Made by a program: the position numbers and the translations under genes
In this document: positions 1 through 62,536 of the stretch, one piece after another
Layout of the letters: each line of letters starts with the position of its first letter
Position numbering within the stretch: position 1 is the first letter of the stretch
Source: Bdellovibrionota bacterium
GTDB lineage: Bacteria > Bdellovibrionota_G > JALEGL01 > DATDPG01
Assembly (NCBI GenBank): GCA_963668355.1
Contig: OY764265.1
Location: forward strand, 1,153,317 to 1,217,316
Direction of reading: 5' to 3'
Length of the DNA stretch: 64,000 nt
The notes under the pieces: generated by a model
Told to the model about the DNA's origin: nothing
The model's database searches: none
Seen by the model: the letters and a program-made list of their open reading frames with translations, nothing else

Positions 1-706
1 GGATGACATCCAGTTTTTAGCCGGGAAAGAGCGTACGCAAGAAGAGTTTTTCCATACATTCAACGCCCTTCACGAAGCCAACAAACAAATTGTTTTAACT
101 TCGGACCGCTTTCCTAAGGAAATTCCTGATCTAGATGAGCGTTTGAGGTCTCGTTTTCAATCGGGCTTATTCTGTGACATTCAGCCTCCAGACGTAGAAA
201 CTCGTGTGGCCATCCTCAAAAAGCGGGCTGAATCGGAAAGTCTGGTTTTACCTGACGATGTAGCTCTCTTTTTGGCCAAAAAGGTGAAATCCAATATCCG
301 TGTTCTGGAGGGGGCCTTCATTCGACTAACCGCCTTTGCGTCCATTAGTCGGCGGCCCATTACGCTGGAATTGACCGAAGAGGTCTTTGGTTCCTTGGCC
401 CCTGAGGAGTCTCGGATCACCATCGAAGCCATTCAAAAACGCGTAGCGGAGTTCTTTAATCTAAACGTTGCCGATTTGAAGTCTTCCCGGCGCCACAAAG
501 TGGTGGCCCTGCCGCGACAAATTGCCATGTATCTAAGCCGAAAGCTAACTCAGGCCTCGTTTCCAGAGCTAGGGAGCCGTTTTGGTGGGAAAGATCACAC
601 CACGGTCATGCATGCCGTCCAAAAAGTCGAACGGCTTCTAGATGATGATTCTCCCCTTCGAAATTCCGTTTCTACCATCGAAAAAACGCTTACCAGTGGT
701 GTGTAA
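1..706 (+). CDS. dnaA: Chromosomal replication initiator DnaA, C-terminal part (5' end lies upstream of the window)
   Basis: Frame 2 is open from the window start (DDIQFLAGKERTQEEFFHTFNAL...); C-terminus RQIAMYLSRKLT...FGGKDHTTVMHA is the DnaA domain IV DNA-binding signature; followed by dnaN-recF-gyrB-gyrA. Confidence 0.9.
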   Translation, partial: DDIQFLAGKERTQEEFFHTFNALHEANKQIVLTSDRFPKEIPDLDERLRSRFQSGLFCDIQPPDVETRVAILKKRAESESLVLPDDVALFLAKKVKSNIRVLEGAFIRLTAFASISRRPITLELTEEVFGSLAPEESRITIEAIQKRVAEFFNLNVADLKSSRRHKVVALPRQIAMYLSRKLTQASFPELGSRFGGKDHTTVMHAVQKVERLLDDDSPLRNSVSTIEKTLTSGV

Positions 707-923
707 ACTCCATTGCTTCTTGTGGATAAATATGATTCTTATTCTCAGCTTCTGGGGAAACCACAGTTATGAATATTCAAGAAGTCCATAGGGTGTCCAT
801 TTCATACACAGGCCAAAATTTTTCTCGTCGGCCTGGAAAGGCTTTTTCCCGAGTTTTCTGCAGTTATCCCCAGGACATACTGCTACTATCTTTTATATAT
901 ACTTATATTTACTTATTTAACGG
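707..923. promoter_or_regulatory. Candidate oriC segment / dnaN upstream region with DnaA-box-like 9-mers and an AT-rich element
   Basis: TTATCCACA (perfect, minus strand) at 721-729; TCATACACA at 802-810; TTATCCCCA at 864-872; AT-rich run cttttatatatacttatatttacttatttaa at about 890-920. Confidence 0.4.
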
Positions 924-5691: not shown

Positions 5692-8160
5692 ATGGGTACG
5701 AAAGAAGCAGTCAGAGAAATTCCCCGTTCCATTGAAGAGGAAATGCGTGCGTCATACCTCGATTATGCCATGAGCGTCATCGTGGGACGTGCACTTCCAG
5801 ACATTCGCGACGGATTAAAACCCGTCCACCGGCGCGTGCTCTATGGCATGTATGACATGGGCAACACGCATAGCAAGCCTTACAAGAAATCGGCACGCGT
5901 GGTCGGGGATGTCATGGGTAAATATCATCCGCATGGCGATTCAGCGATTTACGACACGATTGTGCGCATGGCCCAAGACTTTTCTCTTCGATATCCGCTG
6001 GTGGATGGCCAAGGGAACTTTGGATCCATCGATGGCGATTCAGCGGCCGCCATGCGTTACACCGAAATTCGGATGGATCGCATAGCCGAAGAATTTCTCG
6101 AAGACATCGAAAAAGAAACGGTCAAATTTGGTCGAAACTATGATGACTCCTTAGATGAGCCGCTGGTTTTGCCTACGCGTGTTCCGAACCTGTTAGTTAA
6201 CGGATCCTCCGGAATTGCCGTTGGAATGGCCACAAACATTCCCCCACACAATCTAACCGAAATTTGCGATGGCGTGGTTTCCATGATTCGAAACCCCGAA
6301 CTTTCGGATAAAGAGCTTTTTACAACGGTTAAGGGACCCGATTTTCCCACGGGCGGCATCATTTATGGCCGAACGGGCATCAAGAGCGCGTTCACAACCG
6401 GGCGAGGAAAATTCATCATCCGCGCTCGCGCCATGATTGAGGACATGAAAAAGGGCGATCGTCAGCAGATCGTTGTCACGGAAATTCCCTATCAGGTGAA
6501 TAAAGTTCGGCTCATCGAAGCCATTGCAAATCTGGTTCGAAACAAAAAAATCGAAGGAATATCTGATCTGAGGGATGAGTCGGATCGAGATGGAATGCGG
6601 ATTGTCATTGAGCTCAAGCGAGATGCCAACTCGGCCGTAATTTTGAACCAACTGTATGCGAACACGCAAATGCAAACCTCTTTTGGCGTGATCATGCTGG
6701 GACTGGTCAACGGCCAACCCAAAGTGGTTTCACTCCGCGAGGCCATGGAAATTTTCATTGGTCACCGAAAAGAAGTTGTCATTCGACGGACCATCTTTGA
6801 CTTGCGAAAGGCCGAAGAAAAAGCCCATCTTTTGGAGGGCTTAAAAATTGCCTTGGAAAACATTGATGAGGTTATCCGAATCATCAAAAAGTCCAAAGAT
6901 CCTCATTTGGCTCGAGAGGCACTTTGTAAAAAGTTTTCATTATCCGAACGACAATCCACCGCGATTCTGGAAATGCGTCTCCAACGGTTAACCAACCTGG
7001 AACGCGATAAAATTTTAGAGGACTACAAAGCTACGCTTGAACTCATTAAGAAATATCGCGCGATTTTGGCCGATGAAAAATTGGTCTACAACATCATCGT
7101 GGATGAGTTGGAAGAGATTAAGAAAAAGTATGGTGACAAGCGATTGACCGAAATTCGAGCTCAATTGGATGAATTTTCCGAAGAAGATCTCATAGCCGAA
7201 GAAGATATGGTGGTGACGATCACGCATGCCGGATACATCAAGCGAAACCCCGTGACGATGTATCGCAACCAGCGTCGAGGTGGACGAGGGAAAATTGGGA
7301 CCGGGATCCGAGAGGAAGACTTTGTCACGTCGCTCTTTGTGACCTCAACACACGACTATCTTTTGATTTTCACAGACCGTGGGAAATTATATTGGGTCAA
7401 AGTTCACGAACTTCCCCAAGCGGGAAGAGCGGCGAAGGGAAAACCTTTGGTGAACTTGATTCGTTTGAGTCCGCAAGAAAATGTCACGGCCATTTTACCC
7501 GTTCGGGAATTTGTCGAAGGAAAGCAGATTGTGATGGCGACGAGAAAAGGCGTGATCAAGAAGACAGACCTGATGGCTTTTTCTAACCCAAGGGCGGCAG
7601 GAATCATTGCCTGTGGAATTGATGAAGGGGACCGAATGATCTCCGCCGCGATTACCGAAGGAAACTCGGAAATCTTTTTGGCCACGCGAACGGGCCAGGC
7701 CATTCGTTTTAAAGAGGCCAACGTTCGTTCCATGGGTCGGCAGGCTTACGGCGTAAAGGGCGTTGAGCTTGGAAAGGGCGATGCGGTTGTCGGCATGGAA
7801 GTGTTGACCGGCGAGGGCTTGATGTTGACAGCCACGGAGAATGGTTACGGAAAATTGACCGAAACCACCGAATACCGAACACAGAGCCGCGGCGGAAAAG
7901 GCATCATGACCATGAAGGTCACCGAAAAGAATGGCCCGGTGGTTGGGGTGGCCCAGGTTGCTAAAGATGATGATGTGATGCTCATCAGCGATCATGGAAA
8001 ACTCATCCGAACCCAGGCCAAGGGCATTTCGATCTATGGTCGGGCAACGCAGGGTGTTCGCCTCATTCATATGGAAAAGACCGAAAAACTCGTTGCATTA
8101 GCGAAAATCGTTCCCGAAGACGAAGAAGAAGCTACAGCCCCTGTTGCTGGAAACGCTTAA
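5692..8160 (+). CDS. gyrA: DNA gyrase subunit A
   Basis: 822 aa; N-terminal [31 protein letters not shown] and active-site region AAMRYTE; AGGAGG RBS. Confidence 0.97.
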
Positions 8161-8230
8161 AAAGCGCGACACCCGTCGCGCAAGAGGACTCCGAAATCGT
8201 TGTTAAGAACAGCTACGTTTAAGGGAAGCA

Positions 8231-8419
8231 AATCTGAGGAAGAGTCTCTCCGCTTCGGGTTACGTTCGCTCCAAAGACTACGATCACTGCAGGCGGGGCC
8301 CCTCGTTGTCCGCCCAGCGTCAAGCATAGCTTGCCGCAGGTCGTCTCCGTTTCCCCTACCTTCCGTTCACGAGGTCTTTGGGCTCTCTTCACAGGCGCGG
8401 AGAGACTCTTCCTCAGATT
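8231..8419. repeat. Perfect 23-bp inverted repeat pair (AATCTGAGGAAGAGTCTCTCCGC and its reverse complement) flanking a 143-bp interior
   Basis: Arm 1 at 8231-8253 and arm 2 at 8397-8419 are exact reverse complements; interior shows further imperfect complementarity (CCAAAGAC / GTCTTTGG). Confidence 0.8.
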
Positions 8420-8541
8420 CGCTTTTCGTCATGAGTAATTCTTTTATCTCGCTCCCCTCGCTTGAAATCATTCATTCAAACGGAGACACCTTTTTTGTGA
8501 GAGATGTTTTTAAAGTTACCTTGGAAATGTTGAAAGGGTGG

Positions 8542-8600
8542 CCGACAGGGAAAGGGGCTCCGAGCACTGTCGGGGCGCAGCGAGCCCCTTTCCCTGTCGG
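8542..8600. repeat. Perfect 19-bp stem hairpin (CCGACAGGGAAAGGGGCTC ... GAGCCCCTTTCCCTGTCGG) with 21-nt loop
   Basis: Exact reverse-complement arms at 8542-8560 and 8582-8600; no downstream T-tract. Confidence 0.8.
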
Positions 8601-8756
8601 TCAGGACCCTCCCACAAAATCTCCTCGGCTCACTTTATGCCCAGAACGAAACTCATGCGCGACGAATGTCGCGCATTTACGGATGTCGCGCTTTTTGAGT
8701 TTGGTTTTGAAGGAAGGGCCTTGCTTACATTTCGGATCTGGGGCAGCATCGGGGGC

Positions 8757-9551
8757 GTGAAGGTTTTTTATCTCATCATTCTTGTCAGCCTGGTTGGTTG
8801 TGCTACGGCAGACTTTCGAACCGCAGAAGAAATGGTTCGCCACCAGAAATTCTATAATGGCATAGAACTTTACCTAACCTTTGTCCGAGAGCACCCCAAG
8901 CACAGACGTGCGCCCGAAGCGTTGTTTGAAGTTGGAAATATTCAACAACTCATGTTGAACGATCACAAACAGGCCATGGCCACGTATCGAAAACTGGTCA
9001 ACAACTTTCCCATTAGCCACTACACCATCAACGCCCAACAACGAATCGCAGAGATCTACAAAACCCAACAAGCGGATTATCGTCAGGCCATCGTTGAATA
9101 CGAAAAACTCATCCAAGCTTCCCCCAAAAACCCCCAAGCGGGGAACTATCAGCTTGAGATCGCACAATGCTACACGCTCCTACACAACTACGAACAAGCG
9201 GCGATTGAATTTCAAAAACTCATCGATGAATATCCTGCCTATGGACGCCTGGACGAGGTGTTTTTTCAGGCAGGAAACAATTTTTACATCAGCGGAAAGT
9301 ATAAGGAAGCCATTCAAAGCTATGAAACGGTTTTGAGTCGATTTCCAAACTCCAATTTTCGCCCCCAAGCTCTTTTTGGAATCGGGGGGGCCTATGAGGA
9401 GATGGACCAGTTCAAAGAGGCACGCAAGTATTATGAGATGGTGGTGAAAGATTACCCCTCTCCCCAAGTCGTTCAGATTCGCTTAAAGGGTTTGTCTGAG
9501 CGAGAGAAGAAGAAGACCAAGATCGCAAAGGGCGCACATATCCGGCATTGA
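8757..9551 (+). CDS. TPR-repeat lipoprotein (YbgF/tol-pal-associated-like)
   Basis: In-frame GTG start gives MKVFYLIILVSLVGC lipoprotein signal; tetratricopeptide-like repeats follow; the longer ORF-track start at 8538 runs through the palindromes and is unlikely. Confidence 0.6.
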   Translation: MKVFYLIILVSLVGCATADFRTAEEMVRHQKFYNGIELYLTFVREHPKHRRAPEALFEVGNIQQLMLNDHKQAMATYRKLVNNFPISHYTINAQQRIAEIYKTQQADYRQAIVEYEKLIQASPKNPQAGNYQLEIAQCYTLLHNYEQAAIEFQKLIDEYPAYGRLDEVFFQAGNNFYISGKYKEAIQSYETVLSRFPNSNFRPQALFGIGGAYEEMDQFKEARKYYEMVVKDYPSPQVVQIRLKGLSEREKKKTKIAKGAHIRH

Positions 9552-10894
9552 TGGACGCCTGGTCGCCCCTTGCCACCCGATCGAATCCGTCTATACTTCA
9601 TCCTCTTATGACAACCGGCAGTCTATCGAAAGAACTTTTCAACGCATCCATGAAACTCATTCCAGGAGGTGTGAATTCCCCTGTTAGGGCTTTTCACAGC
9701 GTTGGAGGAGAACCCCTTTTCATTGAAAAAGGAAAGGGCGCCATGTTGGTGGACGCAGACGGTCAAGAATACATTGACTATATGATGAGCTGGGGAGCGT
9801 TGTTGCACGGTCACGCGCACAAAGAAATTACCGGTAAAATTGCAAAAGCTTTGGAACGAGGAACGTCCTTTGGGGCGCCAACAGGCTTTGAATTGGAATT
9901 GGCAAAATTGGTTACAGACGCCCTTCCCGCTATGGACATGATCCGGTTGGTGAACTCCGGGACGGAGGCGACCATGTCCGCCATTCGGCTGGCCCGAGGA
10001 CACACAAACCGAAAAAAGATCATCAAGTTTGATGGCTGCTATCATGGTCATGTCGACGCTCTTCTGGTTGAAGCCGGCAGCGGTGTGGCCACGCTGGGCA
10101 TTCCGGGTTCGCCGGGCATTCCGGAGGAAGTCACGGCACACACGATCAGCCTCCCGTTCAATGATTTGGAAGCGGTTCGAGAGGTCTTTCAGAAAGACCC
10201 CCAAGGTTTTGCGGCCGTGATTGTAGAGCCGGTTGCTGGAAATATGGGCGTCATCCCCCCGCAAGAAGGATTTTTACAAGGCTTAAGGACGCTTACAGAA
10301 GAGCACGGCACGTTGCTCATTTTGGATGAAGTCATGACGGGTTTTCGCGTGGCGTGGGAAGGAGCTCAAGGCATGTTTCAGGTCACACCGGACCTGACCT
10401 GTTTGGGGAAAATCATCGGTGGGGGCCTTCCGGTAGGAGCCTATGGCGGAAAACGCGAAATCATGGAAAAAATTGCGCCCGCCGGACCCATTTACCAAGC
10501 CGGGACCTTGTCGGGAAATCCCATCGCCATGGCGGCGGGAACCAAGGCCCTGAAGCTGGCCAAAGAGCCGGAAACCTACCAACGACTGGACTACCGAAGC
10601 CAATATTTAACAGACGAGCTTAAGAAGAGGGCCGATGCGGCGAAGATTCCCATGACGATCAATCGTGTGGGATCCATGTTTACCCTCTTTTTCTCTGAGA
10701 AGCCGATCACAGACCTTCAAGACGTCAAAGAGTCCAATTTGCGTCGGTTTGCTAAGTACTTCAACGCGATGCTGGAAGAAGGGGTCTATTTTCCCCCCTC
10801 CCCGTTCGAAGCTTGCTTCCTGTCAACGGCCCACGGGGAAACCACGATTGAAAAGACCCTTGCGGCGCACGAAAAAGCTCTCAAGAAATTATAA
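9548..10894 (+). CDS. hemL: Glutamate-1-semialdehyde 2,1-aminomutase
   Basis: Class-III aminotransferase pattern (IPGGVNSPVRAF, YIDYMMSWGALLHGHAH, LILDEVMTGFRVA, GKIIGGGLPVGAYGG); start may be ATG 9551 or ATG 9608. Confidence 0.9.
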   Translation: MMDAWSPLATRSNPSILHPLMTTGSLSKELFNASMKLIPGGVNSPVRAFHSVGGEPLFIEKGKGAMLVDADGQEYIDYMMSWGALLHGHAHKEITGKIAKALERGTSFGAPTGFELELAKLVTDALPAMDMIRLVNSGTEATMSAIRLARGHTNRKKIIKFDGCYHGHVDALLVEAGSGVATLGIPGSPGIPEEVTAHTISLPFNDLEAVREVFQKDPQGFAAVIVEPVAGNMGVIPPQEGFLQGLRTLTEEHGTLLILDEVMTGFRVAWEGAQGMFQVTPDLTCLGKIIGGGLPVGAYGGKREIMEKIAPAGPIYQAGTLSGNPIAMAAGTKALKLAKEPETYQRLDYRSQYLTDELKKRADAAKIPMTINRVGSMFTLFFSEKPITDLQDVKESNLRRFAKYFNAMLEEGVYFPPSPFEACFLSTAHGETTIEKTLAAHEKALKKL

Positions 10895-29518: not shown

Positions 29519-32500
29519 ATGAAACGGGTCGTAAAGGAGAGGTTGGCTTTTATGACGCAGTGTGGTAAACCGCGCTCGAATCAAGGGACTATGCTAAGGG
29601 TGAGGTTTAAAAAGATAATTCTATTTTTTGTGGTGGTCTTGGGACTGCCTTGCTTGGCCGTGGCCAGTCAGGCCCCCAAATCCATTCCGGATGAAGGTCG
29701 CCTTACGAAAGAAATTTCCATTGAACGCTTCAACGGAGCGACGAAAGTCGTCATTGCTCCGGATTTATTACGAAAATGGGACGGAAAACTCACGGAGGAC
29801 AGCAAACTCGTCTTGGCGGAGGTCCTTATTTATCGGAAGCGAACCGTACAAATCCTTCTCGAAGCCCTGGATCGCCTACGATTCTTGGCCTTAGCCTTGG
29901 GAGAAACCGCATACCAAGACCCTTCCTTAGCCATGCCGGACGATTTGGCCATGGTCCTAGACCGCGCGTTTGATCCACGTCAATTTGGTGATCTCATGGG
30001 AGGCGTCGGTTGGCTCCGTAATCCGCTTGCCCAAGGCGCGGAGTTTGATCCCGTGGTCATGGATGCATTTTGGCGAGATATTCTGGAGCGGTCTATCGGA
30101 GTGGTCCATCGAGAATCACAAAAAGCCTTTTACGAACGCTACCGCGGAGTGGATGAGGTCATTGATGAGTCGGTGAGCTTGGAGGAAAACCTAGGTGAGT
30201 ATTGTCGCCGCACGCGCGATGAAATCGATCAATCCAAGGCGGTCTCACAATCCATCGAAGCGAGAAACCAAGAGGCCAGGACGCTGCTCTATGACATCGA
30301 TGGAAATGCCTACGAAGGAGAGCGACTTCTTTTTACGCCCCTTCATTATGGCAAGACCTTTCTTCCCAATGAAATTTATCGCGAGAAGGTTCGCCCCATT
30401 CTTCGGGACATCAATACGCTTCGACAATACCCGGGCAAGGGTCGAGATGATGGCTACTTGGCCAACTTCTTTGTCGCGTTGGCCCTCAATGAATTGTCGG
30501 AGAAGCATGGTTTCGATATACGCCTGGCGACGGAGAGTCAGCCGCGCTCCAGTTTGATCTGTGCGGCGTGGGATGAAATTCCCTTTGATCAACTCGACGA
30601 CGAATTTTTTGTCCGAAATTCGGAGCATTTTCGGACAGCTTTTCTGGCGGCAATTCAAGAGGCCATCCGCCTGCATCAACATGTATTGGTGTACTTATTG
30701 GATTTACATGCGCCTTCCCGCTTTGGCGGCGTCGTCTCGTTTGCTCAATCCGTTACCCGGACCATCAGTCGCGTGTTTAAAAACGACTACCTGCCTTACC
30801 CAGACAACCCCCTCGACATTATCCAAAAACTCTCCGTTCTGGCTGCCATCTTCCAGGGGGCACCCGATCTCATGGAAGAAGTCAGGGCCGAGAATCCAAT
30901 GGATAAAGTCTCCTGGGAAAATTTGCAGAACTGTCTCCGAGAGGAATTTGAGCAATACCAAGTTCGCTTGGAGGGTGATGAACGTCTCAAAGCGTTTAAC
31001 TCGATTGGTTATGTGGGCATGGCCGCCACCATGGTTACCCGGTCTTGGATTCCCACGATTATCATGGTTGTGAATGATGCCTTCATTACGTTTACGATCA
31101 CACGTCCTCGAATGCACTATCGGCAGAATTTGACGAAGTTGTATCAGTCCATGTTTTTGAATGTTGACCCCCAATGGGTCCTGGCCAACGAAGCAAAAAT
31201 AAAACTGGATGTGCATGACCACGCGGACAAACTTCGCGACTTGGTCGTTTTAGACGCTCAAGCGTCCCAAGAATTTCGAAATGCCTGTGGCTGGATGCTG
31301 GGGTTCGGAACGTTCTGGGCCTTTCGAGGCATCAAATGGTTCAATGGCATGTGGCGCTGGGTTCAGGGTGCCGTCAGTCCGGAAAAATATATTGTGAGTT
31401 CGGGATCCAATATGTTCGAACTTCGCAAGGAAGTCATGCGCACGGTCAAAGCCATCTATCAACTTTTTGATGAAAAAATGCTTGTGGACGGAAAGGGCCG
31501 GCGAATTGAAGTCATTGGGGCTTTTCGTAAACAAGGCTGGTGGAAAGAGGTTTGGGAAAGAGCCTATTCTTTCATACCCAATGATCTCACGATCATTCAA
31601 CGCGAGTTTCCTCAAGTCTATCGAAGGTTAGCCCGAGAGTTTAGAAAACTTCACTTACATATAGAGAATCCGGAAGACATCACAAAGTTTTTGGCCCACC
31701 ACGAAAAGGGAGAAGGGTTTTCCCTTTGGTCCCTGGCACAAGAACTCAAATTGGCTAGCCGTGCGGATATCGAAGATTGGGCACGTCGCATGGATAGCTC
31801 GGACGTGGAAGATTTCATCCAACATGCGGGCCAACGTGTGGAAGGAAGAGTTCGCTTCAATCAACTTCACAAACTTCGGATTCGTCGCGAGGGATTTCGA
31901 ATAAAAATCGAGGCGCCCAGAATGCCTGCGCCACCTCTTCAGCCGGCATCCACGGCACAGCAGGCACGGAACAGTCAAAATGTTTTGGCAACGCTCAACG
32001 AAAGATACCAGGTCGCACGCAGACAATTGGCAGCGGACCTTAAAGGTCTCAAAGTTTATGCAGAAGCGGAAGATGATGTCGTCGGGCGCGCGGGAGAATA
32101 TCATTTTAAGAAAAAAGAGATTCAACATGTTCACAATATTCAAAAGACACTTCGGGATTTAGAACACTTATTGGATCCGGTTACCCGCCATAGAGATCGA
32201 AGCGCCCCTGGGGTGGAGCGCACAGCAAAACTTCTCCTTGCCATTGGTAGACCCTTTGAAAAACCCGTTCATGCCAGCCAAGAATTTGTATTTCAAGCCG
32301 TTAGAACCATGTCCGCTTGGATCGGCGTTTATCTTGACCTCAGCCTCGCCATGCGCATGAAGCGCATGATCCCTCCAGGAGCACTTTCTCAAGTGATGAG
32401 AAATGCCATTGCGCAAAAAGTTGAGCGTGTGCCGGGGCTACGACCGTTTGCCGATGCTGTACGCAAAGGAAAGGATTGGATCACCGTAGGCAAAGATGGA

Positions 32501-33415
32501 ATCGCGAGTGGAATCGCCAAGGCCGATGACGTGGCCGAGGAGTTCGCTCGAAAAAAATGGAAACTCAATATTGATGAAAGTTTTGTTTCTACATTTATTG
32601 GAGACAGCGTCATTCTCGGATTGATCACCGGATTTGTGGGTGATCGCCTGTATCGTATGGGAGAAGTAACGTGGCAAAACCGAAGCGATGGGTATGGGGC
32701 GGCACTAAGTGAAGGTGCGGATGCTTTGCTCGTTAATCCCTTCAATTTGGGGGATGCTCACGAGGGGGAAGAGACGAGAATCAACCTTGTTACGGGCATG
32801 GTGCGTCGTGCGTACACCACGTTTTTCATGACTTCGGCCTTAAGTTTTCGAAAGAAAATGATGTGGGTCAACCTGGGTGGCGCCGCAGTTGAAGGCCTCA
32901 CCACCGCCGCGACCAACCTCTACGGTCTTACACATGGCGATGACGCCCTTGACTTCGAGGATGCCCTGGCAACATTGGTTTCACCCGAATGTCTCATCGC
33001 CATCGCCAAGCGCTTAAACCTTGGGTACATCTACAACAACTTCTACGCCCTGTGGCATAAGCAAGCCTATTGGAAAGTCCGACACGCCATGCGCAGTCCC
33101 ATGATGAATCGTTCGATGTACGACGTGTTTGTACTTCGTCTGGGCTGGTCAACCGTCTTAGGCAAGGCAGGATTCACCGGTGCAACTCATTTGTTTGATG
33201 CGCCAGGGGAATGCGCTCCGGTGGACCACCCGTTTGAAGAACTTTCGGTCAAGGGTAACGACCCTCGCATGAGCTTTGCGTTCCAACAAACCGCAGACGA
33301 ATTGGATGCTTTGACGATCAACGATTGGATGGATTTGCAAGAAGAACTCGAAGCCGAAGGCGTAGAAATTGATGAAACATTGGGCATGGAAGAGTTTGAG
33401 GGAGACGTCGAATGA
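29519..33415 (+). CDS. Large exported hypothetical protein (1298 aa)
   Basis: N-terminal hydrophobic signal/anchor (IILFFVVVLGLPCLAVA, likely start near 29591); Gly/Ala-rich hydrophobic segments near C-terminus; acidic tail; no known catalytic motif found. Confidence 0.6.
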   Translation: MKRVVKERLAFMTQCGKPRSNQGTMLRVRFKKIILFFVVVLGLPCLAVASQAPKSIPDEGRLTKEISIERFNGATKVVIAPDLLRKWDGKLTEDSKLVLAEVLIYRKRTVQILLEALDRLRFLALALGETAYQDPSLAMPDDLAMVLDRAFDPRQFGDLMGGVGWLRNPLAQGAEFDPVVMDAFWRDILERSIGVVHRESQKAFYERYRGVDEVIDESVSLEENLGEYCRRTRDEIDQSKAVSQSIEARNQEARTLLYDIDGNAYEGERLLFTPLHYGKTFLPNEIYREKVRPILRDINTLRQYPGKGRDDGYLANFFVALALNELSEKHGFDIRLATESQPRSSLICAAWDEIPFDQLDDEFFVRNSEHFRTAFLAAIQEAIRLHQHVLVYLLDLHAPSRFGGVVSFAQSVTRTISRVFKNDYLPYPDNPLDIIQKLSVLAAIFQGAPDLMEEVRAENPMDKVSWENLQNCLREEFEQYQVRLEGDERLKAFNSIGYVGMAATMVTRSWIPTIIMVVNDAFITFTITRPRMHYRQNLTKLYQSMFLNVDPQWVLANEAKIKLDVHDHADKLRDLVVLDAQASQEFRNACGWMLGFGTFWAFRGIKWFNGMWRWVQGAVSPEKYIVSSGSNMFELRKEVMRTVKAIYQLFDEKMLVDGKGRRIEVIGAFRKQGWWKEVWERAYSFIPNDLTIIQREFPQVYRRLAREFRKLHLHIENPEDITKFLAHHEKGEGFSLWSLAQELKLASRADIEDWARRMDSSDVEDFIQHAGQRVEGRVRFNQLHKLRIRREGFRIKIEAPRMPAPPLQPASTAQQARNSQNVLATLNERYQVARRQLAADLKGLKVYAEAEDDVVGRAGEYHFKKKEIQHVHNIQKTLRDLEHLLDPVTRHRDRSAPGVERTAKLLLAIGRPFEKPVHASQEFVFQAVRTMSAWIGVYLDLSLAMRMKRMIPPGALSQVMRNAIAQKVERVPGLRPFADAVRKGKDWITVGKDGIASGIAKADDVAEEFARKKWKLNIDESFVSTFIGDSVILGLITGFVGDRLYRMGEVTWQNRSDGYGAALSEGADALLVNPFNLGDAHEGEETRINLVTGMVRRAYTTFFMTSALSFRKKMMWVNLGGAAVEGLTTAATNLYGLTHGDDALDFEDALATLVSPECLIAIAKRLNLGYIYNNFYALWHKQAYWKVRHAMRSPMMNRSMYDVFVLRLGWSTVLGKAGFTGATHLFDAPGECAPVDHPFEELSVKGNDPRMSFAFQQTADELDALTINDWMDLQEELEAEGVEIDETLGMEEFEGDVE

Positions 33416-35925
33416 AATATCTTAAACTCACCTTGATCGTGGTTTCCGTTCTTATTGGATGTACCTATGTCCAGAGTGTTGATGCACGCCCTCGTGCAAA
33501 TCGTCAAACGGAAGCCGAAAAAGTCGGAGGTCTTTATCCCCTTACCCCCGAACTTCGTAGCCAGATCTCCACACTCATTGGCATGGCTAGATTTGGTTTG
33601 GGATATAAAAACACAGCCATTCATACTTCGGTCACGAACCCTGCCACGAATCCGTCCTACTACAATGATCTTCTTTATGGCGCCGTACACGCAGGAAGCG
33701 CTGTGCGCGTGCCCAACCGCATCAAAGAGCCCACGCTCTATCATATCAACCATCTCCGACAGGATCTGGGTGCCGAGTATGAGTTGCTGTATTGGAGCGA
33801 AGAAGCGCGCAAGCTTGGCTTCATCACCTCCGTGCGAATGTTAAAGGAATCAGAGGAATATCTTTGGGCGTCGAAGGCCGATCAGCAAGCCATGGAACTG
33901 AACTTAGCCAATCAATATGCCGTTTCTACGGTTCCCAGAGTCACTGAAGCTTTGGAAGAGGTGCGGAAGACAGCTCGCTACGCGGAAGCGGTTGAACGCG
34001 ACGATAAAGGCAGAATCGCTCAATTGGAACTTTGGACGCGTATCAATGCTCTGTATGCGATTTTGCAAGAAACCCGAGCCTATCAAAAAGCACCCAGCTG
34101 GAAGCAGAAAGCCATGGAAGAATTGATTCTGGCCAAAGAGCGCCAAGGTCTCATGAGTGCTTTCCTTCACTTTCGCATTCCCATGTTTCAAATTCCGGTG
34201 GACGGTCTTTCCTCGAATGAAATCGAGGAACTTCTCTTGGAAATGAATCAGGCTTTTCCAGAACACCACCCCTATGTGTTTGAGGTGAAGGATGGTGTGT
34301 TTCAAGGTTGGTTAGATTTAACCGAGCTTTTGCTCATGCGTTCGATGCTGTATCGCACGCGTCTTCCTTGGGAAGACAACACGCTCTCGGAAACATCCGA
34401 TCTCCCGGTGCTGGACCAAATCGCTTTGGGATCGACCCTCACGCACCAAGCGGTCCACATGACCGCGCCCATTCTACAGAATTGGGCGCAAGGTGTGGTC
34501 GCAACGACAACGGCAGCGGACCTTGCGGCATACGAAGGAGCGAGCAGCGCCATTCAATTTTTGGGAGATCGCTATCGTGAAATGCCTCTGCGAGCGCGCA
34601 CTGGAATGTTGGCGCGGACCCTGGTTCCCCGCTTGCCAATATTGAAAGGGCTCTATCTGGAGAATGCGGAGTGGGCCAAGATTGCGGCGGCCATATTTAC
34701 TCGCGCGCAGAAAGAAAGCACGAAAGCCGCGGCGGGGTTTGTTACCACCAAACTCAAGGCCCTGGGAGGCGTAGCCTTACGAAATTCAGCCCTTTTTGGT
34801 CTGGCACTGGTAATTGCGATAGATGCCTATCAGGTCTACCGCGCCGGCCAAGACGCTGGCTCGCCTCAAATGCAAGCCGAGGCGTTTGGAAACTTAGCCG
34901 TTCATTTGGCTGAAGGATTTGGGGCAAGCATGCTCATCAAGGCTTTAGCGGGCGCGGAAATGGTTCAAGTTACGGCAGGTATGGGTTTGGCCCAAGCAAC
35001 GGGTGCGATGCTCACGGCCGCCCTCACCAATCCCGTAACCTGGATCATTGTTCTGGGAATTGTCGCGACGGAAGTGATTCAGCGAAACTGGTATCCGGAC
35101 ATGATTACAATTGGCGTGGTTCGTCAATATGGACAGGCCTTTTTTGCCGATATGTGGAGAACCGTAGCGGACGACTTAATTCGCAGCAAAATCTGCGGAC
35201 GAAACCTTGTGATGGAGCAGTGGCAAAAGAAAGTATGTCTTAAGAAAGAGGAAGGCGGAGATTGGGAGCCTCGCACGTTTTCCTTTTTGGATTATCGCGT
35301 TCCACCTCAGGCCTTCATGGAAATGAACCCAGAGCAGCAGCGAGAAAACCGACGGCTGTATGTCTTGGACTTGGACCATTTTGAGGGATCCGTGGAAGAA
35401 ATCCTTACCTATCCTCCCATTGATCGAGCGGAAGCCTTAGACACTTTAGTAAAGGGCTATGCCGTGGCCTATTTAGAGCGGATGTTTTTCACGCTTCAAT
35501 TCCTAGGAGATGTCAACGTGAACCACTTTAAAGGACTCTTCGAAGAGATTGGTTTGTTGGCTTCGTCTGCTTCAATCGTTCCGGTCGATTTTGAGACGCA
35601 TGTGGCCAAATACGAGACGAAGGACCGCCTAGAAGTAAGAAGCGCGCTGCAGACCGAGCTGGAAGAGTTTGTGGGGCGCGCCGAGGGGCTCGAAAAAGAG
35701 TACGGTCGAAACCTTGTCTTCGGGTCGATTTCCGATGATATGATGCGGCGTTTGACTGGCTTGACGGATGAAGCAATTCTTGTTTTAGAGAACTGCTTTG
35801 ACCTCGAAGGCGAAGATGGGGAAATGCGTGCACGAAAACCTTGTATTCCCACGCCAATTGAGGAAAAAGCCTTGGAAGCTTTGTACGAACAAAGAGATCA
35901 AACAGAGCGGCACTGGTTGAAATAA
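33412..35925 (+). CDS. Large hypothetical lipoprotein (837 aa) with central Gly/Ala-rich hydrophobic helices
   Basis: Lipobox-like LIGC signal; ATGA overlap with upstream gene; central segments (GFGASMLIKALAGA, AGMGLAQATGAMLTAALT) resemble glycine-zipper membrane helices. Confidence 0.6.
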   Translation: MKYLKLTLIVVSVLIGCTYVQSVDARPRANRQTEAEKVGGLYPLTPELRSQISTLIGMARFGLGYKNTAIHTSVTNPATNPSYYNDLLYGAVHAGSAVRVPNRIKEPTLYHINHLRQDLGAEYELLYWSEEARKLGFITSVRMLKESEEYLWASKADQQAMELNLANQYAVSTVPRVTEALEEVRKTARYAEAVERDDKGRIAQLELWTRINALYAILQETRAYQKAPSWKQKAMEELILAKERQGLMSAFLHFRIPMFQIPVDGLSSNEIEELLLEMNQAFPEHHPYVFEVKDGVFQGWLDLTELLLMRSMLYRTRLPWEDNTLSETSDLPVLDQIALGSTLTHQAVHMTAPILQNWAQGVVATTTAADLAAYEGASSAIQFLGDRYREMPLRARTGMLARTLVPRLPILKGLYLENAEWAKIAAAIFTRAQKESTKAAAGFVTTKLKALGGVALRNSALFGLALVIAIDAYQVYRAGQDAGSPQMQAEAFGNLAVHLAEGFGASMLIKALAGAEMVQVTAGMGLAQATGAMLTAALTNPVTWIIVLGIVATEVIQRNWYPDMITIGVVRQYGQAFFADMWRTVADDLIRSKICGRNLVMEQWQKKVCLKKEEGGDWEPRTFSFLDYRVPPQAFMEMNPEQQRENRRLYVLDLDHFEGSVEEILTYPPIDRAEALDTLVKGYAVAYLERMFFTLQFLGDVNVNHFKGLFEEIGLLASSASIVPVDFETHVAKYETKDRLEVRSALQTELEEFVGRAEGLEKEYGRNLVFGSISDDMMRRLTGLTDEAILVLENCFDLEGEDGEMRARKPCIPTPIEEKALEALYEQRDQTERHWLK

Positions 35926-40287: not shown

Positions 40288-43200
40288 TTGGCGGGGAAGT
40301 TTCGTATGAAGACCAGAGATCTGTTGACCAAGGTGTTGTTTTCTTTCCTTTTTGGGCTTTTGGCTTTTTCAGGACAAAGCTTTGCCCAACCGGTATGGCC
40401 ACATTATTTTCAAAATCTTCACCCGAAGGTTTCCTCCACCGAAACCCAATATCTTCTGAGAGAGTTTGCCGATGAATGTGCGGCCCTGGACGTTCTCGGC
40501 TCTCAGCGCTACATCAGTTGGCAAAATCGCGGGACCTCAAGAAAAGATCGAGCGTTGGAGGAAGAATTCGATCAAGCTTTTGAAGAGCTCAAACAATTGA
40601 GTTTTGACATCGTTGATCGCCTGGAGCCCTCCGAACTTTTTCTTTTGCTTCAACAATTTCCGTCTCTGGCCTCGCGCTTGGGAATTCCACAATACGCACA
40701 CAATTTGGTTTCGATGGTCAGCATCGGGAGACCCAAGTTCGGAATTGGCGAACTGGAAAAATTCGTTCGCCATCGCACGCTCGTGCGCTTTCTGGAATTT
40801 TCGGAGGAGGAAGATCCCGAATTTGTCGCGTGGCTCTTAGAGATGTTGATCAAGGCGGAGGCCCATTGGGAGTTGTATGGGAATCTTCTAGCGCGAATGG
40901 ATGCTCTTGAAAGTCAGCGGCAGTACTTGGGCTATACGAACGATGAAAAAATAGACGAATTGAGAAGACACACCGAGTTTTATCAAAAGGCAAAGCCTCA
41001 ATTGGCTAGAGAAATTTTGGAATTGAAAAGGGCGACCGATCATCCCCGTTATGAAGCGTGGTTGAATTTGGCGCAAACCTATTTAGATGAATCTCCGGAC
41101 CTTCCGCAAAACATCGGTGAAGGTTTTGGTCTCCCTTTCTATTATGGTTTTCGTTCGGGCTTAGACAGTCTGGCCAGCGTCTTCCATCGTTTTGTTCTGA
41201 AAGATCCAAAGAAAGCCAGTGAAGCGACACATAATGCCGTCAAGTGGCACGAGCGCGCGTTTGCCAGCTCTCATTATTCTGGACTTCGTATGGACCGGCT
41301 TTTAAAGGGCGCAACCTTCCGTCCCGAAAACAGCCCCACTTTAGTTGGCGCAGGGGCCTCTGAAACTTTTTTGGGCGTTTTTGCTTGGCTGGGAACCGCA
41401 AGCGGTCACATCATGGAAGGGGATATCGGACAAGGGGCCAAGGTTCTTTTCATTGATTTTGCCGATGGGCTGTTTTCGTTGGCGGCGGCGCGCGACGACT
41501 TTGTCGAAGACTGGGCCGAGGTCGCTCAAATGCGATTGCAGGCGCAACTCATTGAGGATGAAACGATTCGTCAAGAAAAGATCATTCAAGCCGGCCAAAT
41601 GGCCTTGGCCAATCGACAAAACGGATATTTCAATCCCCATTATTCCGCGCCTTATGCCATCGGTGCGGTGATGGGAGCCAAAAAGGCATTTCGTTTGATG
41701 GTGGTTCCAATTCGATATCTTCGCTCTTTAAATCCTCGGATTCAGGAAGCCCAAGCCCGAGCAGGGCTGGAAACTTCTTCACGAGGAGGTCAGGGTTTTG
41801 AATGGAAACCCTTAGACGAACAGTCTCGAATACAAGTAGAAAGCCTCATTGAAAGTCTCCGAAAATCTGAAAATGCGGAATTGCAGGCCTTGATCCAAAA
41901 TGTGGAAAAAGGCGAACCTCCAGCCGGTCTATTTCCGGATGAAGGCGGAAGCGCAGCTCCTTCTCTTTCGCCACGCCGAGGAAGTGGCGGAGGTGGACCC
42001 GCAACGCTCGTCGAGTCTCGTCCCACGACGGGCTCACAAACTTCCACATCAACCTCTGTGGGTCAAAGCGCACGCACCCTTCAGCCATCACAGCCCTCTC
42101 CCTCCCAAGGGCCGGTCGCCCAGATTCAAACTCCGACGCAAATCGCTCAAGGTCTCGTCGTCGGAAATGTTGAACTCTTACATGCGAATGAAAATGAAGG
42201 TGAGGAAACCAGCGGGGAGGAAAGCTCATCGGAATTCATTGAACGTTTAACGCGCGAAGTTCGTGAATTACAGAAGCGATTGTTCGATTTCATTCCAGCT
42301 CTGGCTGAAACATTCGGCAGCTTTGAAAACTGGGTTCTGAAAGGCATGCCCCTACCTAGAGAAAGCGAGTTGCATGTTCGAGAAATTCGTCGCTCGATTC
42401 AATTGCCACCTCCTTCTCCCGAGACTATTCCCGATCAACTCATCTTCAACTCGCCAGAATATTTTCGTTGGCTTTTTACAGCCGTCGAAGCCTTAGACAA
42501 AGCCGAGCAAGAAGCTCTAACCGACGCGCTTCAAGGGCTAAACCTCATGACGGAGAGGGGCGGAGATGTCGCGTCCGACGCCACGCGCTTAAGTCAAATT
42601 TTTCAGGGTGTTTCAACCCTCAACTTAAGCGACTTTGATGGAACTCGTTCGCGCCTAGAAGATTTGGGAGAAGCGCGCAATACAGAAGTCGATCAACGCG
42701 CGGAAGAACTCCATGAACTGGAAGCCAACTTGGGCCTACATACGGTAAAAGTTTCGGGAAGACCGCTGGTTTGGCCGGAAATAGGATTGCTTGGTAGTTC
42801 TCAGGCCTCTCCACCACTCGCCATTGGAGAAGCCGGAGCGGCCATGGCTATTGATGGTGTGCCCTCGGAAGAATATCAAGGCTTCATTGATCAGCGTTCA
42901 GGTTTCAATCGTAGTGAACTCGATTTACAAATTCGCATTTTACTCTCGGCCATGGTGTTGCACGGCGAGTTTTTGGAAGCCTGGCGGCCTCAAGCTCAAA
43001 ACGGAGTGACACACAAAATTGCCTATGACGTTAAGCTCAAAGATGACAGCGACGGCGAAACGATTTTAAAACTTCAATTATGGCTTCAGGAAGTCGTAGG
43101 TGAGCGTGCCAAAGTTGTGCAAAGCCATTTCATTGAAGCTGAAAATGTAGGCCATAAAAATGTTTATCGCATTGACATCGTTCCGGGGGATAAAGCCGAC

Positions 43201-53087: not shown

Positions 53088-53375
53088 TGCCCTGTCCTTT
53101 AAAAATTAATGCTTCGCGTCAGGCTGGACTTTATACCTCATCTGGAGCCTCGAAAGAAAGGTTCAAGGGGAGATTTTTTGAAAAAAATTTTGGGCCACCG
53201 TGTAGAAATTTCGAAAAATTCGTAAACTTTAGTTGTCGTTTAAGATATTAAAATAAAAAGATAAATTTGGTTATTGCTTTAAAAACGTGTTTTTTGTTAC
53301 ACTAAAGCTGCACCCCCGAAGGTTGCTCCAGGAGGCGGGACCCAGATTTTCTGGGTTTGGAGTGTCATCGGGTTT

Positions 53376-62534: not shown

Positions 62535-62536
62535 TC

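What the first reader, a model, noticed from the sequence alone, without database searches (positions are those of the whole stretch)
8161..8756. About 600-bp non-coding interval after gyrA packed with long perfect palindromes: candidate structured ncRNA or MITE-like element
A perfect 23-bp inverted repeat (8231-8253 / 8397-8419) flanks a 143-bp interior that is itself partly self-complementary, giving a roughly 190-nt imperfect hairpin followed by CGCTTTTCG. A second perfect 19-bp stem lies at 8542-8600 and a small hairpin GCGCGAC-ACCC-GTCGCGC at 8164-8181. ATGTCGCGC recurs at 8664 and 8681. Perfect arms this long are unusual in a core gyrA-flanking region.
Basis: seen in the sequence. Interest (0 to 1): 0.5.

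Follow-up and report, generated by a model that had tools for sequence, protein, structure and literature searches.

The report
Multi-copy rod-hairpin non-coding element after gyrA
The 600-base gap after gyrA is one copy of a previously undescribed non-coding element, present at least three times in this bacterium's genome, whose roughly 200-base hairpin keeps its base pairing while the paired sequence changes, which points to a functional structured RNA (or DNA hairpin) rather than chance palindromes.

Summary
The two long inverted repeats are the only ones of their size in 64 kb. The interval has no native coding signal and matches no Rfam family.

Relatives (GyrA 74-78% identical or less) have gyrA adjacent to, or overlapping, a TPR lipoprotein gene, or carry unrelated genes there. 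So this interval is a lineage-specific insertion.

Translating the spurious 186-codon frame of the interval and searching protein databases found two annotated "proteins", P0121 and P0122. Both sit on a 2,922,492-bp contig, the same length as the contig carrying this window's GyrA. They are translations of two further copies.
- Copy 2 shares 8159-8541 and 8600-8696, roughly 94% identical by my estimate, with unrelated flanks.
- Copy 3 shares only the rod hairpin.

Across the three copies the 28-34-bp closing helix changes sequence: six compensated positions in copy 2, all positions in copy 3. It stays complementary in the same register. The 143-149-nt interior is conserved.

The pattern favours a structured RNA and is the reverse of a MITE. 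Hairpin 2 is specific to this copy. The function, the transcribed strand and the way the element spreads remain unknown. The DNA of the other copies could not be read.

The parts
5692..8160 (+). gyrA. The stop codon TAA is at 8158-8160, and its last two A's are the first two bases of the element's A-run.
   Evidence: an 822-aa ORF, 100% identical to P0001, with Pfam DNA_topoisoIV and DNA_gyraseA_C domains.
8159..8696 (.). Repeat unit shared with copy 2 (about 538 bp here, about 520 bp without the 17-bp duplication). It is bounded by the perfect 12-bp terminal inverted repeat AAAAAGCGCGAC / GTCGCGCTTTTT, which extends to 21 nt at 90% (8156-8176 / 8679-8699).
   Evidence: P0121 matches 8161-8571 (85%) and 8600-8677 (96%, in another frame). 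The flanks differ: ATGC|AAAAAGCG in copy 2 against GCTT|AAAAAGCG here.
8164..8181 (-). T0: a 7-bp G+C-rich hairpin (loop ACCC) followed on the minus strand by TTTTT (8163-8159). This is an intrinsic-terminator pattern for leftward transcripts. On the plus strand no U-tract follows it.
   Evidence: it is the only intergenic strict terminator pattern in 64 kb. It is conserved in copy 2 (KARHPSR identical).
8182..8222 (.). Linker between T0 and the rod. It is conserved in copy 2, with one visible change at 8210.
8223..8427 (.). Rod 1, a hairpin of about 205 nt. It consists of a closing helix, an internal loop of about 14 x 14 nt, a second helix and an apical domain. It is the unit shared by all three copies.
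   Evidence: MFE -98 / -104 kcal/mol, z about -7 to -8; same helix register in copies 2 and 3.
8226..8253 (.). Left arm of the closing helix. Its sequence varies between copies.
   Evidence: Changes at 8230, 8231, 8237, 8241 and 8244 in copy 2. Entirely different and A/T-rich in copy 3.
8397..8424 (.). Right arm of the closing helix. Its sequence varies between copies.
   Evidence: The changes at 8406, 8413 and 8419 in copy 2 each lie opposite a changed left-arm base.
8254..8396 (.). Conserved interior (143 nt; 149 nt in copy 3). It contains helix P2 (CCAAAGAC 8271-8278 / GTCTTTGG 8374-8381) and the apical loop ATA (8326-8328). The best-conserved blocks are 8296-8319 (GPLVVRPA frame) and 8332-8367 (CRxSSPFPLPxV frame).
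   Evidence: one visible change against copy 2, in the apical loop; copy 3: the core blocks are retained and P2 is 12/13 compatible.
8428..8538 (.). A+T-richer spacer. It is conserved in copy 2 with 4 visible changes (8474, 8481, 8482, 8489). No consensus promoter was found.
8539..8603 (.). Hairpin 2: 22-nt arms (perfect over 19 bp) with a 21-nt loop. It is specific to this copy.
   Evidence: Copy 2 has about 60 nt of unrelated sequence here with no significant hairpin potential. Only junk microRNA-model matches were found in Rfam.
8604..8654 (.). Right-hand conserved segment shared with copy 2.
   Evidence: P0121 residues 150-175 match 8600-8677 at 96%.
8655..8696 (+). T1 region. It holds a hairpin ATGCGCGAC-GAAT-GTCGCGCAT (8655-8676), a 17-bp tandem duplication (8662-8678 / 8679-8695) giving a second GTCGCGC (8685-8691), and TTTTT (8692-8696). 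Copy 2 lacks the duplication and has the canonical plus-strand terminator form GCGCGAC-GAAT-GTCGCGC-TTTT.
8757..9551 (+). TPR / YfiO-like outer-membrane lipoprotein gene. It is the ancestral immediate neighbour of gyrA.
   Evidence: and synteny.

Best explanation
The interval is one copy of a lineage-specific, non-coding, multi-copy element.

Its core is a rod-shaped hairpin of about 205 nt (8223-8427). The rod has a long, essentially perfect closing helix of 28-34 bp, an internal loop of about 14 x 14 nt, and a conserved apical domain of about 115 nt. Selection acts on the pairing of the closing helix, not on its sequence, and on the sequence of the interior. That is the signature of a structured RNA; a hairpin used in single-stranded DNA would fit less well.

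In this copy and in copy 2 the rod sits inside a cassette of about 520 bp (8159-8696) that carries a minus-strand terminator pattern at its left end (T0) and a plus-strand one at its right end (T1). The cassette was inserted, or duplicated, exactly at the gyrA stop codon. This split a gyrA / TPR-lipoprotein gene pair that is contiguous in relatives.

Inferred working model, not shown:
- The plus strand is transcribed by read-through from gyrA, because T0 has no U-tract on that strand.
- The rod folds, and its perfect helix serves as a double-strand-specific (RNase III-type) processing or stabilising stem. This would release or protect the conserved RNA of about 145 nt.
- T1 ends the transcript.
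- In this copy the 17-bp duplication separates the T1 hairpin from its U-tract. That would weaken termination and let the downstream lipoprotein gene still be expressed.

Shown: the anatomy, the multi-copy status, the compensatory evolution, the lack of coding signal, and the insertion relative to relatives. Inferred: RNA as the working form, the strand, RNase III processing and terminator leakiness.
For: 1. Non-random structure.

2. Not coding.
- The 186-codon frame scores -0.12 bits/codon. Real genes score +0.25 +/- 0.07 and off-frames -0.24 +/- 0.08.
- There are no Pfam hits.
- The frame shifts between copies 1 and 2 after 8541.

3. More copies in the same genome.
- P0121 (183 aa) is 82-85% identical to the translation of 8161-8571 and 96% identical to 8600-8677.
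- P0122 (151 aa) is 50% identical over 8248-8427.
- Both are recorded on a contig of 2,922,492 bp, as is the window's own GyrA, P0001.

4. Compensation in copy 2.
- All three visible right-arm changes (8406, 8413, 8419) lie opposite visible left-arm changes (8244, 8237, 8231). The probability of this by chance is 0.003.
- Two of these pairs are forced by the codons to go from A-T to G-C.
- The A.C mismatch at 8230/8420 becomes G-C.
- The reconstructed copy 2 rod folds at -100 to -111 kcal/mol, against -98.3 for copy 1. Chimeras with the changes on one arm only fold at -85.7 and -93.9.

5. Copy 3.
- Back-translation scored as log-odds gives a gapless 33-pair stem of 32.7 bits. Shuffles give 17.0 +/- 1.8, with a maximum of 22.3.
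- At the homologous positions 31 of 32 pairs are compatible, +24.3 bits, while shifting the register by 1-3 gives -5 to -34.
- The inner end of the helix falls at the same position, 8253/8397, in all three copies.
- The interior lengths, 143 and 149 nt, agree with a 2-codon insertion.

6. The arms diverge faster than the rest between copies 1 and 2: 9 changes in 62 nt against 6 in 319 nt, Fisher p = 1e-4.

7. It is an insertion. L086, L087 and L013 have gyrA adjacent to or overlapping the lipoprotein gene, and other relatives carry unrelated genes there.

8. T0 is the only intergenic strict terminator pattern in 64 kb. Copy 2 has the undisturbed T1.
Against: - There are no expression data, and no sigma-70-like promoter in 8000-9000 on either strand.
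- The strand is unresolved. G.U-type mismatches favour neither strand, and both strands fold equally well.
- The arms are perfect Watson-Crick with no G.U pairs. That suits a DNA-level palindrome, or arm-to-arm correction by template switching (PMC8794818), as well as it suits RNA.
- The DNA of copies 2 and 3 was never seen. Their sequences are inferred from annotated ORF translations, so silent changes are invisible and some pair states are only 'compatible'.
- No relative of the element was found outside this genome. The genome and metagenome probes were made from the arms, which turned out to be the variable part.
- Hairpin 2 is not conserved.
- The sharp ends of the unit shared by copies 1 and 2, which coincide with a terminal inverted repeat, point to mobility, and the RNA model does not explain that.
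Confidence: 0.55

Rival explanations
1. Non-autonomous transposable element (MITE-like). The 8159-8696 unit, or the rod alone, is a transposon derivative moved in trans by a transposase encoded elsewhere. The hairpins are by-products of terminal and subterminal repeats. This reading partly overlaps with the best explanation, because a mobile cassette can also encode a structured RNA.
For: - It is multi-copy and non-coding.
- It is inserted at a junction that is tight in relatives.
- The unit shared by copies 1 and 2 ends sharply at a perfect 12-bp terminal inverted repeat, with unrelated flanks.
- Its size is within the range reported for bacterial MITEs, and bcr1-type repeats also show compensatory changes (PMC3184786).
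Against: - There is no target-site duplication at the rod or at the 538-bp unit (sequence).
- The rod's arms are the least conserved part and lie inside the shared unit, so they cannot be transposase-binding termini.
- Copy 3 shares the rod but not the cassette ends.
- There is no transposase, integrase or reverse transcriptase in 64 kb.
- Only three copies are known.
Confidence: 0.25
2. 6S-like RNA. The rod mimics an open promoter and sequesters RNA polymerase. The closing helix is free to vary, the central bubble is conserved, and paralogues exist, as with 6S-1 and 6S-2.
For: - The shape is a rod of about 205 nt with an internal loop of about 14 x 14 nt flanked by G+C-rich helices.
- The closing helix covaries and the interior is conserved.
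- There is more than one copy.
Against: - No match to Rfam 6S or related models, even at E <= 10 in a 251-nt search.
- The bubble lies 31 nt from the end, with a 115-nt apical arm, so it is not central.
- Perfect 28-34-bp helices are not typical of 6S, by my own recollection.
- It is absent from this position in all relatives.
- Three copies in a 2.9-Mb genome would be unusual.
Confidence: 0.07
3. Invertible DNA switch. The perfect inverted repeats flank a 143-bp segment that flips by recombination and controls the downstream lipoprotein gene.
For: Perfect arms of 23-28 bp flank a short segment in an intergenic region, upstream of a surface lipoprotein gene.
Against: - The arm sequences differ between copies, so one site-specific recombinase could not serve them all.
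- The interior is itself folded back on the same axis: P2 and the apical helices are compatible in copy 3.
- There is no promoter-like site inside.
- There is no recombinase gene in 64 kb.
- The lipoprotein start is 330 nt and several hairpins away.
Confidence: 0.04
4. Incidental palindromes, ordinary terminators, or a real protein-coding gene (the 186-codon frame, annotated as a protein in the other copies).
For: - Terminator-like hairpins are expected after gyrA.
- An open frame of 186 codons is unusual for non-coding DNA.
- The annotators called ORFs over copies 2 and 3.
Against: - The structure is far beyond chance.
- There are paralogous copies with compensatory changes.
- Codon usage is non-coding-like.
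- The C-terminal third is in different frames in copies 1 and 2.
- There are no Pfam hits and no homologues outside this genome.
Confidence: 0.03

Closest known systems
bcr1 and similar small dispersed repeats of the Bacillus cereus group (as reviewed in PMC3184786)
   Same: A non-coding intergenic repeat with a few to many copies per genome. It folds into a long double-stranded rod, and compensatory changes between copies keep the structure. Its genomic distribution is not conserved between relatives.
   Different: bcr1 is about 155 bp and is flanked by 5-bp direct repeats. Here there is no target duplication, the rod is about 205 nt inside a cassette of about 520 bp, only 3 copies are known, and there is no sequence similarity.
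MITEs with long terminal inverted repeats (Correia / CREE, ERIC, RUP)
   Same: Short, non-coding, palindromic, inserted next to gene ends, and able to form long RNA hairpins. Some carry terminators or are cut by RNase III (the RNase III point is from my own knowledge).
   Different: In MITE families the terminal repeats are the conserved part and the core varies, and insertions make target duplications. Here the arms vary, the core is conserved, and no duplication is seen.
6S RNA (Rfam RF00013)
   Same: A rod-like RNA of about 200 nt with a large internal loop between helices. The closing helix is conserved in pairing rather than sequence. Paralogues occur in some genomes.
   Different: There is no covariance-model match. 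The helix is perfect and long, the loop is placed asymmetrically, and no RNA polymerase link has been tested.
RNase III processing stalks that flank rRNAs and some sRNAs (established knowledge, not tested here)
   Same: A long complementary 5' and 3' flank, whose sequence drifts but stays paired, encloses a conserved functional RNA.
   Different: No evidence of cleavage. The enclosed 143-nt RNA matches no known stable RNA.
SPRITE, the Rho-independent-terminator-like repeat of Streptococcus pneumoniae (PMC3184786)
   Same: A repeat element whose ends look like intrinsic terminators and which sits after genes.
   Different: SPRITE is about 105 bp and is essentially just the terminator. Here terminator-like hairpins bracket a structured body of about 500 bp.

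Membership tests
Any Rfam 15 family (including 6S, SRP, Y RNA, OLE, ROOL, HEARO, raiA) | Covariance-model score at or above the family's gathering threshold | tested here: not met
   No hit at gathering score in the 64-kb window. At E <= 10, only microRNA or snoRNA noise on hairpin 2 and the arm.
6S RNA | Rod with a central bubble flanked by closing and terminal helices | tested here: inconclusive
   The MFE and centroid folds show an internal loop of about 14 x 14 nt, but it lies 31 nt from the 5' end, with a 115-nt apical arm.
6S RNA | Binds sigma-70 RNA polymerase holoenzyme and templates product RNAs | not testable with these tools
   Needs biochemistry or small-RNA sequencing.
MITE / non-autonomous TIR transposon | Terminal inverted repeats at the ends of the repeated unit | tested here: met
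   The unit shared by copies 1 and 2 ends in AAAAAGCGCGAC ... GTCGCGCTTTTT, which is perfect over 12 bp and 19/21 over 21 bp. The long 28-nt arms are internal, not terminal.
MITE / non-autonomous TIR transposon | Target-site duplication flanking the element | tested here: not met
   No direct repeat of 2-10 bp at 8226/8424, 8223/8427, 8231/8419 or 8159/8696. The copy 2 flanks (ATGC... / ...CNATH) also do not match each other.
MITE / non-autonomous TIR transposon | Inverted repeats conserved among copies (the transposase binding sites), with a more variable core | tested here: not met
   The rod arms carry 9 visible changes in 62 nt against 6 in 319 nt elsewhere. They are completely different in copy 3, while the core is kept.
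MITE / non-autonomous TIR transposon | Several copies per genome and no transposase gene inside | tested here: met
   At least 3 copies on the 2,922,492-bp contig. There is no coding signal.
MITE / non-autonomous TIR transposon | A cognate autonomous IS with the same ends | not testable with these tools
   The rest of the genome is not retrievable. There is no transposase in the 64-kb window.
IS200/IS605-derived palindrome-associated elements | Subterminal hairpins at both ends, no terminal inverted repeats, no target duplication, and the same tetra- or pentanucleotide 5' of every copy | tested here: inconclusive
   The ends carry the same 7-bp-stem hairpin, and there is no duplication. However, the A-run / T-run arrangement is inverted-symmetric, and the 5' flanks differ (GCTT against ATGC).
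Intrinsic (Rho-independent) terminator, for T0 and T1 | G+C-rich hairpin immediately followed by a U-tract | tested here: met
   T0 on the minus strand has a 7-bp stem with 6 G-C pairs, a 4-nt loop and TTTTT. T1 in copy 2 has the form GCGCGAC-GAAT-GTCGCGC-TTTT. In copy 1 a 17-bp duplication interrupts it. Function is untested.
Invertible promoter switch (inverton) | Both orientations of the IR-flanked segment present in a population, and a cognate invertase | not testable with these tools
   No reads are available. There is no recombinase in the window. The arms differ between copies.
Retron msr-msd | a1/a2 inverted repeats flanking the ncRNA, with a reverse transcriptase gene immediately downstream | tested here: not met
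   Inverted repeats are present, but the next gene is a TPR lipoprotein, and there is no reverse transcriptase in 64 kb.

The most novel reading that the evidence does not exclude
The rod is the founding member of a new class of bacterial rod-shaped RNAs. In this class a conserved core of about 145 nt is presented on a long, perfectly paired helix whose sequence diverges faster than its surroundings. Either the helix sequence itself is a programmable specificity element, for example a double-stranded precursor cut into small guide-like RNAs. Or the rod is a new kind of polymerase- or protein-sequestering RNA, carried on a self-insulating mobile cassette with a terminator at each end.
Probability: 0.1. 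Interest if true: 0.75.

Novelty: new member of a known kind. Interest (0 to 1): 0.5.

Why it matters
If it holds, this adds a new structured non-coding family in a poorly sampled lineage related to Bdellovibrionota. The closest GyrA in public data is only 78% identical.

The family is supported by compensatory evolution between paralogues, not only by a predicted fold. It has an unusual split of constraints: pairing without sequence conservation in a very long helix, and sequence conservation in the enclosed core.

It also shows how an insertion can break a conserved gyrA / lipoprotein gene pair, and how a small duplication may have disabled the element's terminator to keep the downstream gene expressed.

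On the practical side:
- It flags two annotated "hypothetical proteins" as probable artefacts.
- It shows that translating spurious frames is a workable way to find hidden copies of non-coding elements when the DNA cannot be searched.

Tried and rejected
- **Rfam.** The window at gathering score, 7000-10000 and 8200-8450 at E <= 10, and six relatives' loci all gave nothing relevant. There are no tRNA or tmRNA genes.
- **Arm 21-mer as a probe.** It found nothing in genome contigs, metagenome contigs or viral contigs.
- **Hairpin 2 arm in metagenomes.** The one hit, L088, is a chance match with no partner arm.
- **Interior probes.** These could be run only against viral contigs, with no hits.
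- **BLAST searches.** blastn of the interval against plasmids and phages found nothing. It also found nothing against the window and all fetched loci apart from itself.
- **Conserved ncRNA downstream of gyrA in relatives.** Rejected. The apparent inverted repeats in L013 and L002 lie inside coding sequence or are not structured. Relatives lack the interval.
- **Decayed remnant of the SIR2 / MsrP / MsrQ genes found at this junction in L081.** Rejected. tblastn found nothing.
- **oriC or DnaA-box cluster.** Rejected. There are no boxes in the interval.
- **Real protein.** Rejected.
- **Six-frame concatenated protein query.** It failed, with 8000 candidates and none scoring, and used the last protein search.
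- **Retrieving the DNA of the source genome or of copies 2 and 3.** All were 'not on record'.
- **Conservation of hairpin 2 in copy 2.** An ad hoc score gave p = 0.03. The log-odds score gave p = 0.61. I treat hairpin 2 as not conserved.
- **First back-translation hairpin scores.** They were too permissive and were discarded.
- **P0123** (952 aa, repetitive) is a low-complexity chance match.
- **Literature searches** for Bdellovibrio MITEs or sRNA repeats found nothing relevant.
Full report
**1. Observation**

The interval 8161-8756 lies between the gyrA stop codon (TAA, 8158-8160) and the GTG start of a TPR / YfiO-like lipoprotein gene at 8757. That start is fixed by alignment to the orthologue of the closest relative and by a lipobox signal peptide.

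- Arms 8226-8253 / 8397-8424: 28 nt with one mismatch, perfect over 23 bp, 143 nt apart.
- Arms 8539-8560 / 8582-8603: 22 nt, perfect over 19 bp, 21 nt apart.
- GCGCGAC-ACCC-GTCGCGC at 8164-8181.

ATGTCGCGC recurs at 8666 and 8683, two bases from the quoted positions. These copies belong to a 17-bp tandem duplication.

- A second GCGCGAC-N4-GTCGCGC hairpin at 8657-8674.
- An outer inverted repeat, 8156-8176 / 8679-8699 (19 of 21), that closes the whole interval.
- An unbroken 186-codon frame.

The two long repeats are the only ones of at least 18 nt within 400 nt in the 64-kb window. None occurs in the six closest relatives' loci. Chance expectation for the arm sequences is essentially zero. 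The fold energies are 7-12 standard deviations below shuffled sequence on both strands.

**2. What it is not**

- No Rfam family matches, at gathering score or at E <= 10. That includes 6S, SRP and the large structured RNAs. There are no tRNA or tmRNA genes.
- The long open frame is not a native gene. Its codon score is -0.12 bits per codon, against +0.25 +/- 0.07 for the window's genes and -0.24 +/- 0.08 for off-frames. No ORF in the interval hits Pfam.
- There are no DnaA boxes and no sigma-70-like promoter.
- There is no remnant of the genes that sit at this junction in a relative.
- Nothing similar turns up in plasmid or phage collections.
- The 64-kb window encodes housekeeping functions: the dnaA 3' end, dnaN, recF, gyrB, gyrA, ATP synthase subunits, dnaJ and others. 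It has no transposase, integrase or reverse transcriptase.

**3. Context in relatives**

The window's GyrA is identical to a database protein on a 2,922,492-bp contig. The next best GyrA is 78% identical, and named hits point to Bdellovibrionota-like MAGs.

In relatives the order gyrB-gyrA-TPR lipoprotein-aminotransferase is conserved. gyrA and the lipoprotein gene are adjacent or overlapping in L086, L087 and L013. Other relatives carry unrelated insertions at exactly this junction:
- SIR2 + MsrP + MsrQ in L081.
- MsrP + MsrQ in L085.
- Two large unknown ORFs in L084.
- A minus-strand gene in L001.

The interval is therefore a lineage-specific insertion at a recombination-prone junction. It is not a conserved gyrA-associated RNA.

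**4. The key result: more copies in the same genome**

The source genome's DNA could not be fetched. So I translated the spurious 186-codon frame and searched the protein collection.

The single hit, P0121 (183 aa), lies on a contig of the same length, 2,922,492 bp. It is 82-85% identical to the translation of 8161-8571. In another frame it is 96% identical to 8600-8677.

A profile search of 1.84 billion representatives added P0122 (151 aa), also on that contig. It matches only 8248-8427.

Both are gene calls laid over further copies of the element. Neither maps anywhere else in the window or in the 88 fetched loci.

Copy 2 begins to match at the A-run 8159-8163 and stops after GTCGCGCTTTT. 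Its flanks are unrelated: ATGC|AAAAAGCG against GCTT|AAAAAGCG here. Copies 1 and 2 therefore share a discrete unit of about 520 bp, whose ends are the perfect 12-bp inverted repeat AAAAAGCGCGAC / GTCGCGCTTTTT. Copy 2 lacks the 17-bp tandem duplication, so its right end is a canonical terminator, GCGCGAC-GAAT-GTCGCGC-TTTT.

**5. Compensatory evolution**

I mapped the amino-acid differences back to codons. Fourteen codons differ visibly between copies 1 and 2 over 8161-8541, involving 15 nucleotide positions. Nine positions fall in the closing helix (62 nt) and six in the remaining 319 nt (Fisher p = 1e-4). From these visible changes I estimate about 94% nucleotide identity.

Pairs in the helix obey i + j = 16650.
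- The three right-arm changes (8406, 8413, 8419) lie exactly opposite the left-arm changes 8244, 8237 and 8231. The probability of this by chance is 0.003.
- For 8237/8413 and 8231/8419 the codons force a change from A-T to G-C.
- The A.C mismatch at 8230/8420 becomes G-C.
- The reconstructed copy 2 rod is as stable as copy 1 or more so (-100 to -111 against -98.3 kcal/mol). Placing the changes on one arm only costs 4-13 kcal/mol.

The 143-nt interior has a single visible change, in the apical loop (8327).

For copy 3, I scored the back-translation as a log-odds of Watson-Crick pairing.
- The score recovers the known arms of copy 1 from its amino-acid sequence alone, which serves as a control.
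- It finds a gapless 33-pair stem of 32.7 bits. Shuffled peptides give 17.0 +/- 1.8, with a maximum of 22.3.
- Threaded onto copy 1's structure at homologous positions, 31 of 32 closing-helix pairs are compatible (+24.3 bits). Every shift of register by 1-3 gives -5 to -34 bits.
- The arm sequence is entirely different and A/T-rich.
- The helix ends at the same inner position, 8253/8397, in all three copies.
- The interior is 149 nt, matching a two-codon insertion near the apical loop.
- Helix P2 (8271-8278 / 8374-8381) and the apical helices are also compatible in copy 3, with weaker scores.
- Two interior blocks, 8296-8319 and 8332-8367, are conserved in sequence.

Copy 3 does not share the cassette flanks.

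**6. Interpretation**

The pattern has three parts: a long helix that is conserved in pairing and register but free in sequence, a conserved enclosed core, and conserved linkers.

This is what a structured nucleic acid under selection looks like. It is the reverse of a MITE family, where the terminal repeats are the constrained part. The long arms also lie inside the unit shared by copies 1 and 2, and no target-site duplication exists at any plausible boundary. I therefore favour a structured RNA element.

Two points keep a mobile origin alive:
- The cassette of about 520 bp has sharp ends that coincide with a terminal inverted repeat.
- Its presence here is an insertion.

A mobile origin and an RNA function are not exclusive. 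Known small repeats such as bcr1 combine mobility, transcription and compensatory changes (PMC3184786). Arm-to-arm correction by template switching could also keep arms perfect at the DNA level (PMC8794818). However, it would not explain the conserved interior.

**7. Proposed mechanism (inferred)**

T0 is a terminator pattern only on the minus strand. It is the only intergenic strict terminator pattern in 64 kb. T1 is a terminator pattern on the plus strand. Transcription in either direction would therefore stop as it leaves the cassette.

On the plus strand, gyrA transcripts would pass T0 and fold the rod. In all three copies the rod's 3' arm is followed by a T-rich stretch. The transcripts would then end at T1.

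A perfect 28-34-bp RNA helix is a natural substrate for a double-strand-specific nuclease such as RNase III. It is also a natural end-protecting stem. This rests on established knowledge and was not tested.

In copy 1 the 17-bp duplication moves the T1 hairpin 17 nt away from its U-tract. That plausibly weakens termination, so the lipoprotein gene, formerly coupled to gyrA, can still be read.

The strand is not resolved, because wobble-type mismatches favour neither strand.

**8. Hairpin 2**

Copy 2 has about 60 nt of unrelated sequence in place of 8542-8599. It shows no significant hairpin potential under the log-odds test, whereas copy 1's own peptide scores 30 bits. An earlier ad hoc score (p = 0.03) is not robust. 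Hairpin 2 is a copy-specific perfect palindrome of unknown origin. It may be a template-switch product.

**9. Limits**

- The DNA of copies 2 and 3 was never read, so silent changes are invisible.
- Copy number beyond three is unknown. Only copies over which a gene was called in the matching frame can be found this way.
- No expression data exist.

**10. Verdict**

This is a real, non-random, multi-copy, non-coding structured element that matches no Rfam family. I file it as a new member of the broad class of dispersed structured repeats and sRNA-like elements. Its function is unknown. Interest is moderate.

Noticed in passing
window 143-923: The window starts inside dnaA: 143-706 is the DnaA C-terminal domain. 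A perfect DnaA box (721-729, minus strand) and a one-mismatch box (864-872) lie in the dnaA-dnaN gap. Boxes with at most 1 mismatch are enriched in the window, 26 against about 10 expected. oriC is probably in or near 707-923.
   Followed up: partly
L081 12473-14650; L085 8456-10150; L084 8591-13994; L001 12464-13450: The gyrA / TPR-lipoprotein junction is a hot spot for unrelated insertions in relatives: SIR2 + MsrP + MsrQ, MsrP + MsrQ, two large unknown ORFs, and a minus-strand gene. L081 also carries a VapB / PIN toxin-antitoxin pair between gyrB and gyrA (9347-9927).
   Followed up: partly
whole window: A strict intrinsic-terminator pattern (perfect stem of at least 6 bp plus a T-run) occurs only twice in 64 kb, and once intergenically (T0). 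Convergent genes abut or overlap with no hairpins between them. This genome appears poor in canonical terminators.
   Followed up: partly
window 62535-63544 and 53088-53613: Two other long stretches (about 1 kb and 526 bp) have no convincing ORF. They have no Rfam hit, no long inverted repeats, and no similarity to the element.
   Followed up: partly
P0121 and P0122 (other loci of the source genome, not in the window): The public annotation of the source genome-aa and 151-aa proteins across the other copies of the element. They have no domains and no homologues outside the genome, and their frame is not kept between copies. They are probably annotation artefacts.
   Followed up: yes
window 8161-8760: The 186-codon frame through the element is the same frame as gyrA, so a read-through of the gyrA stop codon would add about 200 residues. 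This is probably coincidence. The frame is not conserved past 8541 in copy 2.
   Followed up: partly
window 8343-8352 / 8478-8487: There is a perfect 10-nt complementarity between the rod interior and the spacer. Copy 2 changes 8481 and 8482 with no visible change on the other side, so the complementarity is probably chance.
   Followed up: yes
window 29519-35925, 40288-46539 and 48877-50901: Several very large ORFs (1298, 837, 2083 and 674 aa) have no Pfam domain or only one.
   Followed up: no
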